DNA from: Reyranellaceae bacterium
GTDB lineage: Bacteria > Pseudomonadota > Alphaproteobacteria > Reyranellales > Reyranellaceae
Length of the DNA stretch: 64,000 nucleotides
Direction of reading: 5' to 3'
Assembly: GCA_022844045.1 (NCBI GenBank)
Contig: JALHMM010000016.1
Span: 19,806 to 83,805, forward strand
In this document: piece by piece, positions 31,208 to 32,692 of the stretch
How the letters are laid out: every line of letters starts with the position of its first letter
Numbering within the stretch: position 1 is the first letter of the stretch
The notes under the pieces: model-generated
Databases searched by the model: none
Seen by the model: the letters and a program-made list of their open reading frames with translations, nothing else
Told to the model about the DNA's origin: nothing
Made by a program: the position numbers and the translations under genes

Positions 31208-32692
31208 CTAGAAGGCGGGCGGCCGGATCGGGAACATCAGCGGCGGGCGCACCAGCGGCGGACGCACCAGAGGCGGCCGGATCGGGAACACCAGCGGCGG
31301 CCGGATCAGCGGCGGTCGGATCGGGAACACCAGCGGTGGCCGGATCAGCGGCGGCCGGATCGGGAACACCAGCGGTGGGCGCACCAGCGGCGGCCGGACC
31401 GGGAACATCAGCGGTGGACGCACCAGCGGCGGCCGGATCGGGAACACCAGTGGCGGCCGGATCAGCGGCGGCCGGATCGGGAACACCAGCGGTGGCCGAA
31501 TCAGCGGCGGCCGGATCGGGAACATCAGCGGTGGCACCGGCACCAGCGGCGGCTGGATCGGAAACACCTGCTGCGGGCGCACCAGCGGCGGCCGGACCGG
31601 GAACATCAGCGGCGGGCGCACCACCAGCACCGGCGGGCGGATCGGGAACACCAGCGGCGGCCGGATCAGTGGTGGGCGAATCAGTGGCGGCCGGATCAGT
31701 GGCGGGCGGATCAGTGGCGGCCGGATCGGGAAGACCGGCGGGCGCACCACCAGCACTGGCGGGCGGATCGGGAACACCAGTGGCGGCCGGATCAGTGGCG
31801 GCCGGATCAGTGGCGGTCGGATCAGTGGCGGAACGATGGGAAAGACCGGGAACAGTGTCAGCGCGGGCGAGACGCCATCGCCGCCCTGGGAGCCGCCGCC
31901 ATAGGGGTCGTAGCCGGCGTTCGGGTCGTACCCGCCATACGGGTCGTAACCCGCATACGGGTCGTAGCCCGCATTCGGGTCGTAGCCGGCGTTCGGATCG
32001 TATCCGCCATACGGGTCGTAACCCGCATACGGGTCGTAGCCGGCGTTCGGGTCGTAGCCGCCATACGGGTCATACCCGGCGTTCGGGTCGTACCCGCCAT
32101 ACGGGTCATACCCGGCGTTCGGGTCGTACCCGCTGTAGGGATCGTATCCGGCGTTCGGGTCGTAACCCGCATACGGGTCGTACCCGGCGTTCGGGTCGTA
32201 CCCGCCATACGGGTCGTATCCGGCATTCGGGTCGTACCCACCATACGGATCGTATCCGGCGTTCGGGTCGTACCCGCCATACGGGTCGTACCCGGCGTTC
32301 GGGTCGTACCCGCTGTAGGGATCGTATCCGGCGTTCGGGTCGTACCCGCCATAGGGATCGTATCCGGCGTTCGGGTCGTATCCCGCGTAGGGATCGTAGC
32401 CTCCCGCAGCTCCATACGGATCGTATCCGTATGGATCATAGGCGGACGCTGCGCCGTATGGACCGTAGGTCATGGGCATCTCCTCGCGCTTGCCCGTCGC
32501 CGGATCGAGGGATTCGATTCCGACGACCTGATTGGTTGCTGAGTCGATTCGATAGATCACATGCCGTTCGACGGTGGCGCCCTGTGCCGCGGCCTGCGGC
32601 GATGCCTCCGCCTCGGGCTTGCTGGGGGTGGCGGGCCCCTTGCGGGGCGCATCCTCGGCCGGCTTGTCGTCCGATCCACGGCCTCGGGTCAT
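31208..32692 (-). CDS. 494-aa diblock repeat protein: unique N-terminal region, about 30 G-Y-D-P-(Y/N)-(G/A/S) units, then about 30 P-P-L-(I/V)-R / P-P-L-V-F-P-I-R units
   Basis: The ATG at 32692 lies 5 nt after GAGGAGGG. The N-terminus has normal composition (MTRGRGSDDKPAEDAPRKGP...VERHVIYRIDSATNQVVGIESLDPATGKREEM). Third codon positions are mostly G/C in this frame. Repeat units use synonymous CGN and CCN codons. Same strand as the downstream enzyme genes. Confidence 0.8.
   Translation of the reverse strand: MTRGRGSDDKPAEDAPRKGPATPSKPEAEASPQAAAQGATVERHVIYRIDSATNQVVGIESLDPATGKREEMPMTYGPYGAASAYDPYGYDPYGAAGGYDPYAGYDPNAGYDPYGGYDPNAGYDPYSGYDPNAGYDPYGGYDPNAGYDPYGGYDPNAGYDPYGGYDPNAGYDPYAGYDPNAGYDPYSGYDPNAGYDPYGGYDPNAGYDPYGGYDPNAGYDPYAGYDPYGGYDPNAGYDPNAGYDPYAGYDPYGGYDPNAGYDPYGGGSQGGDGVSPALTLFPVFPIVPPLIRPPLIRPPLIRPPLVFPIRPPVLVVRPPVFPIRPPLIRPPLIRPPLIRPPLIRPPLVFPIRPPVLVVRPPLMFPVRPPLVRPQQVFPIQPPLVPVPPLMFPIRPPLIRPPLVFPIRPPLIRPPLVFPIRPPLVRPPLMFPVRPPLVRPPLVFPIRPPLIRPPLVFPIRPPLIRPPLVFPIRPPLVRPPLVRPPLMFPIRPPAF
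31211..31850 (-). repeat. in-frame coding tandem array (15- and 24-bp units) encoding the Pro/Arg/hydrophobic repeats
   Basis: Recurring ccggatcgggaacaccagcggcgg / ccggatcagcggcgg units on the plus strand. Confidence 0.9.
31897..32470 (-). repeat. in-frame coding tandem array (18/36-bp period) encoding the GYDPYG/GYDPNA repeats
   Basis: Recurring gggtcgtacccgccatacgggtcgtatccggcgttcgg units on the plus strand. Confidence 0.9.

What the first reader, a model, noticed from the sequence alone, without database searches (positions are those of the whole stretch)
31208..32692. Diblock repeat protein: about 30 acidic GYDP units followed by about 30 proline/arginine/hydrophobic units resembling proline-rich antimicrobial peptides
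A roughly 75-aa N-terminal region of ordinary composition includes a beta-strand-like VERHVIYRIDSATNQVVGIESLD. After it, the protein switches to G-Y-D-P-Y-G / G-Y-D-P-N-A hexamers. By my manual count there are about 30 YDP units, so about 30 Asp.

After GGGSQGGDG it switches again to P-P-L-I-R, P-P-L-V-R, P-P-L-V-F-P-I-R, P-P-V-L-V-V-R and P-P-L-M-F-P-V-R units. I count about 30 Arg, every one followed by Pro. The two blocks therefore carry roughly equal and opposite charge. Neither repeat block contains Lys, Glu, His, Cys or Trp.

At the DNA level, equivalent Arg positions use CGG, CGC, CGT and CGA, and Pro positions use all four CCN codons. The periodicity is therefore maintained at the protein level and is not a recent slippage artefact.

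The cationic block resembles mammalian and insect proline-rich antimicrobial peptides (Bac7, PR-39). The acidic block could act as a neutralising pro-region, as in defensin or cathelicidin precursors. No signal peptide is visible. Alternative readings are a multi-core RiPP precursor, a rigid polyproline-II spacer (compare the Glu-Pro/Lys-Pro segment of TonB), or a polyampholyte that self-associates.
Basis: partly seen in the sequence, partly recalled or inferred. Interest (0 to 1): 0.85.

Follow-up and report, generated by a model that had tools for sequence, protein, structure and literature searches.

The report
Self-neutralised repeat precursor of methylated peptide
The odd two-block repeat protein is real and is most likely the substrate gene of an undescribed bacterial peptide-modification pathway, in which a eukaryote-like arginine methyltransferase and a backbone N-methyltransferase act on a proline/arginine-rich polymer kept neutral by an equally charged acidic block.

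Summary
A 494-aa minus-strand ORF (31208-32692) has 30 YDP units with 30 Asp, then 30 Arg that are each followed by Pro.

It is not an orphan. It is the first gene of a conserved operon:
- the precursor gene, followed by a hairpin;
- a type-I-like protein arginine methyltransferase (PRMT) with a C-terminal borosin-binding domain (BBD);
- a borosin backbone alpha-N-methyltransferase (E 6e-58 to dbOphMA);
- an S8 subtilase.

The same precursor architecture recurs next to PRMT genes in Alpha- and Betaproteobacteria and Acidobacteriota. It consists of a conserved beta-hairpin leader, an acidic G/Y/D/P block and an Arg/Pro core.

A sister set of clusters replaces the N-methyltransferase with YcaO plus a dehydrogenase, and there the cores become Cys-rich. 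Enzyme set and core chemistry therefore co-vary, as expected of RiPP precursors.

Acidic and basic residue counts match within 3 in 16 members (r = 0.985). They also change together in close relatives (30/30 versus 26/26).

Best reading: a RiPP precursor with a built-in anionic propiece and a cationic core that is methylated on arginine and on the backbone, then released by the protease.

No paper or family model found describes it. The resemblance to proline-rich antimicrobial peptides is compositional only, and the product's activity is unknown.

The parts
33069..33602 (-). AraC-family regulator gene upstream of the precursor (177 aa); probable cluster regulator
   Evidence: Pfam HTH_18 at 4.8e-24. 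It holds the same position in the close relatives L097 and L098 and in the acidobacterial cluster L028. A regulatory role is inferred.
31208..32692 (-). Precursor gene: 494-aa protein made of leader, acidic block and basic repeat block
   Evidence: There is no Pfam or NCBIfam hit. Homologues with the same layout lie immediately upstream of PRMT in L006-L010 and L021.
32471..32572 (-). Conserved leader motif, residues 41-74 (VERHVIYRIDSATNQVVGIESLDPATGKREEMPM)
   Evidence: Alignment A3 gives the consensus QYVYHVNxATxQVxKVEELDPxTGERKEVPM. The leader HMM matches 22 ORFs in the fetched loci. It is the only part of the protein that AlphaFold2 predicts with some confidence: pLDDT 75-79, three strands. 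In L011 the motif is fused to the N-terminus of two PRMTs.
31901..32467 (-). Acidic block, residues 76-264: 30 YDP units (GYDPYG / GYDPNA), 30 Asp, 49 Tyr
   Evidence: The block is present in both the N-methyltransferase-type and the YcaO-type clusters. Its charge matches that of the basic block.
31874..31900 (-). Gly-rich linker GGGSQGGDG. The loosely conserved uncharged junction (G-V-S-P-A-L-T-L-F-P) lies just downstream, at the start of the basic block.
   Evidence: Junctions of 18 family members are compared.
31211..31873 (-). Basic core block, residues 274-494: 30 units of PP-(L/V/I/F/M/P)n-R, ending in RPPAF
   Evidence: The type of core co-varies with the enzyme set across the family.
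31149..31180 (-). Perfect 14-bp GC-rich hairpin (CCGCCGCCATGGCC-CTAG-GGCCATGGCGGCGG) between the precursor stop codon and the PRMT start codon
   Evidence: the 118-nt intergenic RNA folds at -58 kcal/mol, z = -3.06. Most of the 13 other family loci examined fold into a strong GC-rich hairpin just after the precursor gene. A role in raising the precursor-to-enzyme transcript ratio is inferred.
29940..31091 (-). Protein arginine N-methyltransferase (383 aa), type-I-like, with a C-terminal borosin-binding domain
   Evidence: Pfam PRMT_C at 9e-14. PDB PRMT6, PRMT8 and PRMT1 at 1e-39 to 1e-40. Motif I, the double-E loop (SEWMG..DENM) and the THW loop (THWGQ) are invariant in 39 homologues. The AlphaFold2 model has pLDDT 91.6 and its Foldseek top hits are PRMT6, PRMT2 and CARM1 at target-normalised TM about 0.8.
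29943..30128 (-). Borosin-binding domain (BBD): a five-helix bundle at the C-terminus of the PRMT, about residues 322-383
   Evidence: As a single sequence, the seven best PDB hits are all SonA (E 0.017). As a profile of 23 homologues, SonA scores 3e-9 and the OphMA BBD region 0.04. AlphaFold2 predicts five helices at 325-375 after a low-confidence linker.
29140..29943 (-). Borosin-type peptide backbone alpha-N-methyltransferase (267 aa, no BBD of its own). Its start overlaps the PRMT stop codon by 4 nt.
   Evidence: PDB: dbOphMA 6e-58, OphMA 2e-53, SonM 2.6e-48. It contains the YGHPGVF and DCLFAD signature motifs (motifs defined in bioRxiv 10.1101/2021.12.24.474128).
27654..29129 (-). S8 subtilase (491 aa) with no signal peptide; candidate maturation protease
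   Evidence: Pfam Peptidase_S8 at 6.4e-39. The sequence shows the D/H/S triad motifs. S8 homologues recur in 12 of 24 family loci.

Best explanation
The ORF is the precursor (substrate) gene of a RiPP-type biosynthetic operon. The operon combines a bacterial protein arginine methyltransferase (PRMT) with a split-borosin backbone N-methyltransferase.

**Proposed mechanism**
1. The precursor is made in excess. An intercistronic hairpin follows its gene.
2. Its conserved roughly 35-residue beta-hairpin leader docks on the PRMT.
3. The PRMT is held on the N-methyltransferase dimer by its C-terminal borosin-binding domain, so both enzymes work on the same chain.
4. The PRMT methylates the guanidino groups of the 30 Arg in the Pro/Arg/hydrophobic core.
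5. The N-methyltransferase methylates backbone amides of the non-proline residues (L, I, V, F, R).
6. Until then, the acidic Tyr/Asp block carries one Asp per Arg. It keeps the very hydrophobic polycation neutral, soluble and harmless inside the producer.
7. The cytoplasmic S8 subtilase finally cuts at the uncharged junction and releases the methylated core.

**Shown**
- Identities of the genes and domains.
- Conserved synteny across phyla.
- Co-variation of core chemistry with the enzyme set.
- Charge matching.

**Inferred**
- Every chemical step.
- The docking roles of the leader and the BBD.
- The cleavage site.
- The biological activity of the product. An antibacterial role like that of proline-rich antimicrobial peptides is my best guess at about 35%, and is not part of the confidence given here.
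For: **Operon content**
- The precursor is followed by a hairpin, PRMT-BBD, the N-methyltransferase and S8. The PRMT and N-methyltransferase genes overlap by 4 nt.
- The N-methyltransferase scores E 6e-58 to dbOphMA and 2.6e-48 to SonM, and carries both borosin signature motifs.
- The PRMT keeps motif I, the double-E loop and the THW loop in 39 homologues.
- The PRMT's C-terminal domain is a BBD.

**Conserved synteny**
- Six GTDB genomes encode a protein with an acidic block then a basic block immediately upstream of PRMT and the N-methyltransferase. They are Paracoccaceae, Allosphingosinicella, Nitrosospira, Burkholderiales and two Acidobacteriota.
- Five of the six also carry the leader. The Paracoccaceae protein (L006) lacks it.

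**Core chemistry tracks the enzyme set**
- The same leader and acidic block precede Cys-Pro-Arg repeat cores exactly where the cluster has YcaO and, in most cases, a nitroreductase-type dehydrogenase plus a PRMT without a BBD.
- Cys counts are 11-26 in those cores, against 0 in the N-methyltransferase-type cores.

**Leader and BBD**
- The leader is fused to the N-terminus of two PRMTs in L011.
- In the loci where a BBD was detected it sits in one place: the PRMT C-terminus, the N-methyltransferase N-terminus, or a small SonA-like precursor.

**Charge matching**
- D+E versus R+K after the leader differ by at most 3 in 16 members. Counts range from 6 to 31, r = 0.985.
- Close relatives with 92.5% PRMT nucleotide identity have 26 YDP and 26-27 R+K, against 30 and 30 here.

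**Other**
- Most of the 13 other family loci examined have a strong hairpin after the precursor gene.
- Large repeat-containing precursors next to borosin N-methyltransferases are established (bioRxiv 10.1101/2021.12.24.474128).
- A BBD fused to a tailoring enzyme (GNAT) has been noted (bioRxiv 10.1101/2024.01.09.574750).
Against: - There is no experimental evidence for any modification, cleavage or product.
- No transporter or immunity gene recurs in 24 family loci. The S8 has no signal peptide. Export of a product is therefore unexplained.
- The core of 221 aa is far larger than usual RiPP cores.
- Two precursors (L006, L014b) lack the leader, so the leader cannot be strictly required.
- S8 is present in only about half of the loci.
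- Part of the acidic/basic correlation comes simply from both counts scaling with length.
- Which block the N-methyltransferase modifies is unknown. Some borosin enzymes methylate Asp/Glu repeats. However, the acidic block persists in YcaO clusters that have no N-methyltransferase.
Confidence: 0.72

Rival explanations
1. This is still a RiPP, but a true multi-core precursor. The protease or other peptidases cut after every (methyl)arginine and release about 30 short N-methylated peptides, such as PPLIR, PPLVFPIR and PPLVR. The product would not be one long polymer.
For: - The units are short, recur many times and end uniformly in Arg.
- Multi-core borosin precursors are known, for example RceA with ten cores.
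- An S8 protease is present.
Against: - Unit types and their order differ markedly between close relatives, while the pattern is kept. This fits a periodic polymer better than defined small products.
- Each core block has its own conserved start. In several members it also ends in an aromatic residue (F, FF). This holds where acidic and core blocks alternate, as in L009 and L028, and suggests excision of the block as a whole.
- Arg methylation generally hinders cleavage after Arg. This point rests on general knowledge.
Confidence: 0.13
2. This is not a natural-product precursor. It is a functional intrinsically disordered diblock polyampholyte that stays intact. The Tyr/Asp block and the Arg block associate with themselves or with each other, forming a coacervate, matrix or scaffold. 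Arginine and backbone methylation tune that association, much as PRMT methylation tunes Tyr-Arg-driven condensation of FUS-like proteins in eukaryotes.
For: - Acidic and basic residues are strictly segregated and stoichiometrically matched.
- There are 49 Tyr facing 30 Arg.
- The whole protein except the leader is predicted to be disordered.
- No exporter or immunity gene is conserved.
- The FUS/PRMT analogy comes from my own knowledge, not from a tool.
Against: - Partner enzymes are the hallmark enzymes of two RiPP classes: the borosin N-methyltransferase, or YcaO plus a dehydrogenase.
- Core chemistry switches with them, with Cys only where YcaO is present.
- A protease recurs in the clusters.
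- In L096 the core and the acidic part are separate genes.
- A hairpin follows the precursor gene, as is typical for RiPP structural genes.
Confidence: 0.11
3. The ORF is an artefact. Either repetitive GC-rich DNA happens to be open in several frames and the real gene is one of the plus-strand ORFs (31090-32778 or 31157-32542), or the array is an assembly artefact.
For: - All six frames are fairly open here.
- Short-read contigs often end in or next to the gene.
Against: - A Shine-Dalgarno sequence precedes the ATG.
- The codon-position GC pattern fits only the minus-strand frame.
- The minus-frame protein architecture is conserved in three phyla with different DNA.
- An independent assembly gives an identical last 167 aa, with synonymous DNA differences.
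- Close relatives on a 2-Mb contig carry the same gene.
Confidence: 0.02
4. The protein is a rigid polyproline-II envelope spacer like the Glu-Pro/Lys-Pro region of TonB, or another structural cell-envelope protein.
For: Two proline-containing blocks of opposite charge lie in tandem.
Against: - There is no signal peptide, membrane anchor or C-terminal globular domain.
- The gene context is methyltransferases and a protease, not an energy-transduction system.
Confidence: 0.02

Closest known systems
Split borosin RiPP clusters (type IV SonM/SonA; types V-VIII with large repeat precursors such as RceA, SliA, AinA)
   Same: - The N-methyltransferase is a discrete enzyme of the borosin clade, about 265 aa like SonM, with both signature motifs.
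- A borosin-binding domain is present in the cluster.
- The adjacent precursor is a large repeat protein.
   Different: - The BBD sits neither on the precursor nor, in this window, on the N-methyltransferase. It is at the C-terminus of a PRMT.
- The precursor has its own unrelated beta-hairpin leader and an acidic propiece.
- The cores are Pro/Arg/hydrophobic rather than DVDV, TEVX or DVIELSSGGEL.
- A second methyltransferase class and an S8 protease are integral to the cluster.
- No borosin paper in the searchable library mentions PRMT or arginine methyltransferase in this context.
BBD-GNAT acetyltransferase fusion noted in the RODEO borosin survey (bioRxiv 10.1101/2024.01.09.574750)
   Same: A borosin-binding domain is fused to a tailoring enzyme rather than to the precursor or the N-methyltransferase.
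   Different: The enzyme class differs (GNAT versus PRMT). That case is only mentioned in passing, and no precursor of this type is described there.
Eukaryotic type I PRMTs (PRMT6, PRMT1, PRMT8, PRMT2, CARM1)
   Same: - The fold, including the beta-barrel and arm subdomain.
- SAM motif I, the double-E loop and the THW loop.
- 30-33% identity, with target-normalised TM-score about 0.8.
   Different: - It is bacterial and operon-encoded, and carries a BBD.
- Its presumed substrate is a dedicated repeat polypeptide with Arg in Pro-rich, not Gly-rich, context.
- Bacterial PRMT relatives in secondary-metabolite operons have been proposed as ancestors of the eukaryotic enzymes (PMC3417536).
Thioamitide TsaG (histidine bis-N-methyltransferase with predicted PRMT-like structure)
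   Same: It is a precedent for a PRMT-fold enzyme acting as a RiPP tailoring enzyme.
   Different: TsaG acts on one His of a small thioamitide core. Here the cores contain no His and up to 30 Arg.
Linear azol(in)e peptides made by YcaO plus a dehydrogenase
   Same: Sister clusters share the same precursor leader, acidic block and PRMT. They use YcaO and a nitroreductase-type dehydrogenase on Cys-Pro-Arg repeat cores.
   Different: The window itself has no YcaO or dehydrogenase, and its core has no Cys, Ser or Thr repeats.
Proline-rich antimicrobial peptides and their precursors (Bac7, PR-39; apidaecin multi-copy precursors with acidic spacers; anionic propieces of defensins). This comparison is from my own knowledge.
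   Same: - A cationic Pro/Arg periodic sequence.
- An anionic pro-region that balances the cationic part.
- Release by a protease.
   Different: - No sequence relationship.
- 13.6% Arg and about 46% aliphatic or aromatic residues, so it is much more hydrophobic and less charged.
- The block is 221 aa long.
- It is predicted to be methylated.
- The origin is bacterial.
- Target and uptake are unknown.
TonB Glu-Pro/Lys-Pro spacer (from my own knowledge)
   Same: Adjacent acidic and basic proline-containing blocks.
   Different: There is no membrane anchor or TonB C-terminal domain, and the context is unrelated.

Membership tests
Split borosin RiPP gene cluster | A peptide alpha-N-methyltransferase of the borosin clade of TP_methylases, with the YGHP and DCLFAD motifs | tested here: met
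   dbOphMA 6e-58, OphMA 2e-53 and SonM 2.6e-48, against about 1e-3 to 1e-4 for corrin methylases. FYGHPGVF and EDCLFAD are present.
Split borosin RiPP gene cluster | A borosin-binding domain (five-helix bundle) somewhere in the cluster | tested here: met
   A profile of the PRMT C-termini scores 3e-9 against SonA and 0.04 against the OphMA BBD. AlphaFold2 predicts five helices. Its location on a PRMT is new.
Split borosin RiPP gene cluster | An adjacent precursor whose core is alpha-N-methylated on backbone amides | not testable with these tools
   Adjacency and a repeat core are shown. Methylation needs mass spectrometry. 139 of the 221 core residues are not Pro and could in principle accept a methyl group.
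Type I protein arginine methyltransferase | SAM-binding motif I, the double-E loop and the THW loop | tested here: met
   VxDxGxGxG, SEW.G..G..EN and THWGQ are invariant in 39 homologues.
Type I protein arginine methyltransferase | A Rossmann domain plus beta-barrel/arm architecture | tested here: met
   Pfam PRMT_C at 9e-14. Foldseek finds PRMT6, PRMT2 and CARM1 at E 1e-32 and target-normalised TM about 0.8.
Type I protein arginine methyltransferase | Catalyses omega-N-methylation of peptidyl arginine (mono- or asymmetric dimethyl) | not testable with these tools
   This is inferred from the motifs and from Arg being the one residue common to all the associated cores.
Proline-rich antimicrobial peptides (Bac7 / PR-39 type) | Sequence relationship, or the characteristic dense PRP / RPP motif pattern with a high Arg fraction | tested here: not met
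   Homology searches returned only low-complexity matches. The block is 37% Pro but only 13.6% Arg, and has no PRP motif.
Proline-rich antimicrobial peptides (Bac7 / PR-39 type) | Non-lytic antibacterial action on an intracellular target (ribosome or DnaK) | not testable with these tools
   No data.
Linear azol(in)e peptide (YcaO) cluster | A YcaO cyclodehydratase, usually with a dehydrogenase, next to a Cys/Ser/Thr-rich core | tested here: not met
   The window contains no YcaO or nitroreductase homologue, and there is no Cys in the core. The feature is met by the sister clusters L014, L016, L020, L086, L087, L090/091 and L093.
TonB-like envelope spacer | An N-terminal membrane anchor and a C-terminal TonB domain flanking the charged proline blocks | tested here: not met
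   The N-terminus is polar, there are no Pfam domains, and the protein ends in the repeat.

The most novel reading that the evidence does not exclude
These loci define a new RiPP class whose common, class-defining enzyme is a bacterial PRMT. The precursors would be giant and self-neutralised, built of a leader, a Tyr/Asp propiece and an Arg/Pro core. Their arginines would be omega-N-methylated, and their cores further modified by either borosin backbone N-methylation or YcaO azole formation. The result would be bacterial counterparts of animal proline-rich antimicrobial peptides. The same loci would also give a concrete ancestral context for eukaryotic PRMTs and for methylation control of Tyr/Arg-rich disordered proteins.
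Probability: 0.4. Interest if true: 0.9.

Novelty: new variant of a known kind. Interest (0 to 1): 0.8.

Why it matters
1. **Arginine methylation in bacteria.** It would be the first ribosomal natural-product pathway built around side-chain arginine methylation by a true PRMT. PRMTs are regarded as essentially eukaryotic. It would also support the proposal that eukaryotic PRMTs came from bacterial peptide-modifying operons.
2. **Borosin biology.** It adds an architecture in which the docking domain sits on a second tailoring enzyme. This implies a two-methyltransferase complex and could explain some of the roughly 730 orphan borosin methyltransferases that have no recognised precursor.
3. **Precursor design.** One acidic residue per arginine, kept across phyla and through repeat expansion, is a clean natural example of intramolecular charge masking of a toxic or insoluble polycation.
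4. **Product chemistry.** The predicted products are long Pro/Arg/hydrophobic chains methylated on side chain and backbone. That is chemically unusual and could be protease-resistant and membrane-permeant.
5. **Annotation.** The family is currently invisible to annotation, with no Pfam or NCBIfam model. It also tends to break short-read assemblies.

Tried and rejected
**Searches that led nowhere**
- The word-index homologue search with the whole protein returned only low-complexity GYDPN-type tails of unrelated proteins. It did not return the protein itself, whose exact sequence is absent from that collection.
- The same search with the leader alignment found only 2 short fragments.
- The exhaustive HMMER search gave 342 hits, most of them compositional. 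True relatives had to be picked out by a match to the leader.
- Pfam and NCBIfam found nothing on the precursor or on four relatives.
- A PDB search with the N-terminal 89 aa found nothing.
A 6-sequence alignment worked.
- tblastn of PRMT-BBD against PLSDB plasmids found no match, so no cultured plasmid-borne copy was identified.
- Literature searches found nothing relevant for borosin + PRMT or arginine methyltransferase, YcaO + arginine methyltransferase, RiPP + arginine methylation, or proline-rich antimicrobial peptide + RiPP.

**Ideas considered and rejected**
- *The PRMT's own C-terminal tail is the borosin core.* The tail after the BBD is only 5-7 polar, variable residues in 39 homologues.
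- *The plus-strand ORFs are the real genes*.
- *Recent slippage or an assembly artefact*.

**Not pursued**
- I did not identify the source organism. The contig comes from an activated-carbon drinking-water metagenome.
- A dN/dS-style count on the leader against a close relative was uninformative: 8 synonymous versus 5 non-synonymous changes.
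Full report
**1. The observation**

The finding is a minus-strand ORF at 31208..32692. It starts with ATG and encodes 494 aa, and GAGGAGG lies 8 nt upstream of the start.
- The N-terminal part is 75 aa of ordinary composition.
- The acidic block is 189 aa made only of Y, G, P, D, A, N and S. It has 30 YDP and 30 Asp.
- The linker is GGGSQGGDG.
- The basic block is 221 aa with 30 Arg, each followed by Pro. Its units are PPLIR x10, PPLVFPIR x7, PPLVR x5 and variants.
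- Neither block contains K, E, H, C or W.
- All four CGN Arg codons and all four Pro codons are used.

This is more than chance. None of 100,000 shuffles of the basic block puts Pro after every Arg. The last acidic residue precedes the first basic residue of the repeat body by 20 positions.

The DNA repeats are imperfect, with period 36 at 85% and period 39 at 77%. The longest exact repeat is 56 nt.

The frame is correct. Codon-position GC is 0.73/0.53/0.82, which matches the neighbouring genes. The overlapping plus-strand ORFs show the wrong pattern.

On assembly:
- An independent assembly of the same sample encodes an identical last 167 aa, with synonymous DNA differences.
- Several short-read contigs of this cluster and of a 61%-identical relative end at or inside the gene.
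- The unit count in this window is therefore plausible but not independently verified.

**2. The neighbourhood**

The ORF heads a co-directional gene set.
- **Upstream:** an AraC-type regulator at 33069-33602.
- **32 nt after the stop codon:** a perfect 14-bp GC hairpin at 31149-31180. The intergenic RNA folds at -58 kcal/mol, z = -3.06.
- **29940-31091:** a 383-aa protein arginine methyltransferase (PRMT).
- **29140-29943:** a 267-aa TP_methylase whose start overlaps the PRMT stop codon.
- **27654-29129:** an S8 subtilase with no signal peptide and an intact D/H/S triad.

*The PRMT.*
- It matches PRMT6, PRMT8 and PRMT1 at 1e-39 to 1e-40.
- It has the PRMT_C subdomain.
- Motif I, the double-E loop and the THW loop are invariant across 39 homologues.
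- Its AlphaFold2 model has pLDDT 91.6. It superposes on type I PRMTs with a target-normalised TM-score of about 0.8.

*The TP_methylase.* It is a borosin peptide backbone alpha-N-methyltransferase. It scores dbOphMA 6e-58, OphMA 2e-53 and SonM 2.6e-48. It carries the YGHP and DCLFAD motifs used to define the family.

*The PRMT's C-terminal extension.* The last roughly 60 residues of the PRMT are a borosin-binding domain (BBD).
- As a single sequence, the seven best PDB hits are all SonA (E 0.017).
- As a profile, it scores SonA at 3e-9 and the OphMA BBD region at 0.04.
- AlphaFold2 predicts five helices after a flexible linker.
- The tail after the BBD is only 5-7 polar, variable residues. The PRMT itself is therefore not the borosin core carrier.

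**3. Relatives**

A scan of GTDB genomes with the PRMT-BBD alignment found six loci with a two-block repeat ORF immediately upstream of PRMT and the N-methyltransferase. They come from Paracoccaceae, Allosphingosinicella, Nitrosospira, Burkholderiales and two long-read Acidobacteriota.

Five of these ORFs start with a conserved motif, consensus QYVYHVNxATxQVxKVEELDPxTGERKEVPM. All six have G/Y/D/P acidic repeats and PP(L/I/V/F)nR repeats.

The exhaustive HMMER search and a metagenome scan added more members. Many are truncated at contig ends.

In a second group, the same leader and acidic block are followed by Cys-Pro-Arg repeats, such as CLPPRCWPPRCWPP and CIVRPPCIVRPP. These genes sit next to YcaO, a nitroreductase-type dehydrogenase, often S8, and a PRMT that lacks the BBD. 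Core chemistry therefore tracks the enzyme set.
- YcaO clusters have 11-26 Cys in the core.
- N-methyltransferase clusters have none.
- Arg and the PRMT are common to both.

All-against-all clustering of ORFs from 24 loci shows that only five families recur: PRMT, S8, the N-methyltransferase, YcaO and the dehydrogenase. No transporter or immunity gene recurs.

Most of the 13 other loci examined have a strong hairpin after the precursor gene.

Three variants are informative.
- In L011 the leader motif is fused directly to the N-terminus of two tandem PRMTs. This kind of gene fusion suggests that leader and PRMT interact.
- The BBD is at the PRMT C-terminus in Proteobacteria. It is at the N-terminus of the N-methyltransferase ORF in the two Acidobacteriota. 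It is on a small SonA-like precursor in L062, a cluster that also contains a PRMT.
- In L096 the Pro/Arg core and the leader-plus-acidic part are separate genes flanking S8.

**4. Charge matching**

After removal of the leader, D+E and R+K counts in 16 family members are:

31/30, 19/18, 13/11, 19/18, 15/15, 22/21, 12/13, 11/12, 15/12, 7/7, 16/14, 17/17, 8/7, 10/9, 9/8 and 8/6.

The correlation is r = 0.985 and no pair differs by more than 3.

Two close relatives of the window organism have 92.5% PRMT nucleotide identity. One lies on a 2.03-Mb contig. They carry 464- and 474-aa versions with 26 YDP units, 28 D+E and 26-27 R+K, against 30, 31 and 30 here. Both arrays have therefore changed length together. 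This is the strongest support for the acidic block being a stoichiometric neutraliser of the core.

AlphaFold2 predicts the whole protein as disordered except the leader. The leader has pLDDT 75-79 and three short strands.

**5. Most likely mechanism**

The ORF is the precursor of a RiPP-type pathway. The working model is as follows.
1. The leader docks on the PRMT.
2. The BBD tethers the PRMT to the N-methyltransferase dimer.
3. The PRMT methylates the core arginines.
4. The N-methyltransferase methylates backbone amides of the non-proline core residues, 139 of 221.
5. Meanwhile the acidic Tyr/Asp block masks the hydrophobic polycation.
6. The S8 then cuts at the uncharged junction, whose conserved features are listed.

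What is shown: the genes, domains and motifs, the synteny across phyla, the co-variation of enzymes and cores, and the charge matching. Everything chemical is inferred.

I put 0.72 on "precursor and substrate of this methyltransferase pair". Within that, I put about 0.6 on the neutralising-propiece role and about 0.35 on an antibacterial function like that of proline-rich antimicrobial peptides.

Points against the model:
- No conserved exporter or immunity gene was found.
- The protease is cytoplasmic.
- The core is very large.
- Two precursors lack the leader.
- S8 is present in only about half of the loci.

**6. Rivals**

- *Many short peptides rather than one polymer (0.13).* Unit order is not conserved between close relatives, and each core block has its own conserved start, which both argue against this.
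- *An intact functional polyampholyte or condensate protein tuned by methylation (0.11).* This is attractive because of the Tyr/Arg composition and the lack of an exporter. It is disfavoured by the RiPP-type enzymes, the protease and the split-gene variant.
- *Artefact or plus-strand gene (0.02).*
- *TonB-like spacer (0.02).*

**7. Comparison with known systems**

Large repeat precursors beside split borosin N-methyltransferases are established, as types V-VIII. A BBD fused to a GNAT tailoring enzyme has been noted. About 730 borosin methyltransferases still lack a recognised precursor.

No searchable paper links borosins or YcaO clusters with PRMTs, or RiPPs with arginine side-chain methylation.

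Two papers give context:
- A PRMT-fold histidine methyltransferase, TsaG, is known in thioamitides.
- Bacterial PRMT relatives in secondary-metabolite operons have been proposed as ancestors of the eukaryotic enzymes.

The cluster meets the testable borosin criteria, but with a new placement of the BBD and a new precursor family.

It does not meet sequence or motif criteria for proline-rich antimicrobial peptides. Arg is 13.6% and there is no PRP motif. That comparison stays an analogy.

**8. Verdict**

This is a real feature and is accurately described. It is part of a conserved and so far undescribed precursor and PRMT system that spans borosin-type and YcaO-type clusters. I rate it a new variant of a known kind (a RiPP and split-borosin cluster), with a fair chance that it deserves to be called a new class. 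Interest: 0.8.

Noticed in passing
L011:7812-8942 and L011:9055-10206 (Egibacteraceae MAG JBOGEB010000007.1): Two tandem PRMT genes each carry the precursor leader motif fused to their N-terminus, and neither has repeat blocks. This suggests a leader-PRMT interaction. It could also be a regulatory or decoy form.
   Followed up: partly
L096:3651-7561 (soil contig Ga0066903_100000001): This is a split version of the precursor. A separate 214-aa ORF has 59% Pro and 24 Arg in PRPIPPLPRPIPPL repeats, which look very like Bac7. S8 follows, then a gene with only the leader and acidic block, then PRMT. Charges are not balanced here (13 acidic against 24 Arg). The reading frame of the Pro-rich ORF is not independently verified.
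   Followed up: partly
L014, L016, L020, L086, L087, L090/L091, L093: Sister clusters encode YcaO, a nitroreductase-type dehydrogenase and a PRMT (often also S8). Their precursors share the same leader and acidic block but have Cys-Pro-Arg repeat cores. They are presumably arginine-methylated thiazole-containing peptides.
   Followed up: partly
L028:3625-4995 (Acidobacteriota): The precursor has the order acidic-core-acidic-core, and its cores are TIPTLPR(I/V)(T/C) units. The cluster has AraC, YcaO, S8 and PRMT but no dehydrogenase.
   Followed up: no
L062:5379-8948 (Candidatus Gilichinskyi gelida): A classical SonA-like 73-aa BBD precursor (core GALFIVRIFRAAV, with two Arg) lies between two borosin N-methyltransferases and is followed by a PRMT. 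PRMT tailoring may therefore extend to ordinary type IV borosins.
   Followed up: no
L009:9006-10061 and L021:9010-10410: In the two acidobacterial long-read MAGs the BBD lies at the N-terminus of the N-methyltransferase ORF rather than at the C-terminus of the PRMT. This is either a real domain shift or the same nanopore frameshift in both assemblies.
   Followed up: no
L012, L026, L040, L045: These loci have a PRMT without a BBD next to a longer N-methyltransferase-matching ORF. They share two further gene families, and no leader-type precursor was detected. The precursor, if any, was not found.
   Followed up: no
window 32468-32476 and the equivalent position in relatives: A Met is conserved at the boundary between leader and acidic block (…KEVPM|…). 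The leaderless Paracoccaceae precursor (L006) starts exactly at this Met. It could be an internal start or a processing site.
   Followed up: no
window 35414-36607 (+), 34268-35152 (-), 23101-24270 (+): An AAA_16 ATPase, a MipA-family gene and a Fic-domain gene lie near the cluster. The AAA_16 gene keeps its position in the close relatives L097 and L098 but not in distant clusters. There is no evidence that any of them belongs to the pathway.
   Followed up: partly
window 32001-34000: GC content drops to 0.61 around the AraC gene and the precursor promoter region, against about 0.67-0.71 on either side.
   Followed up: no
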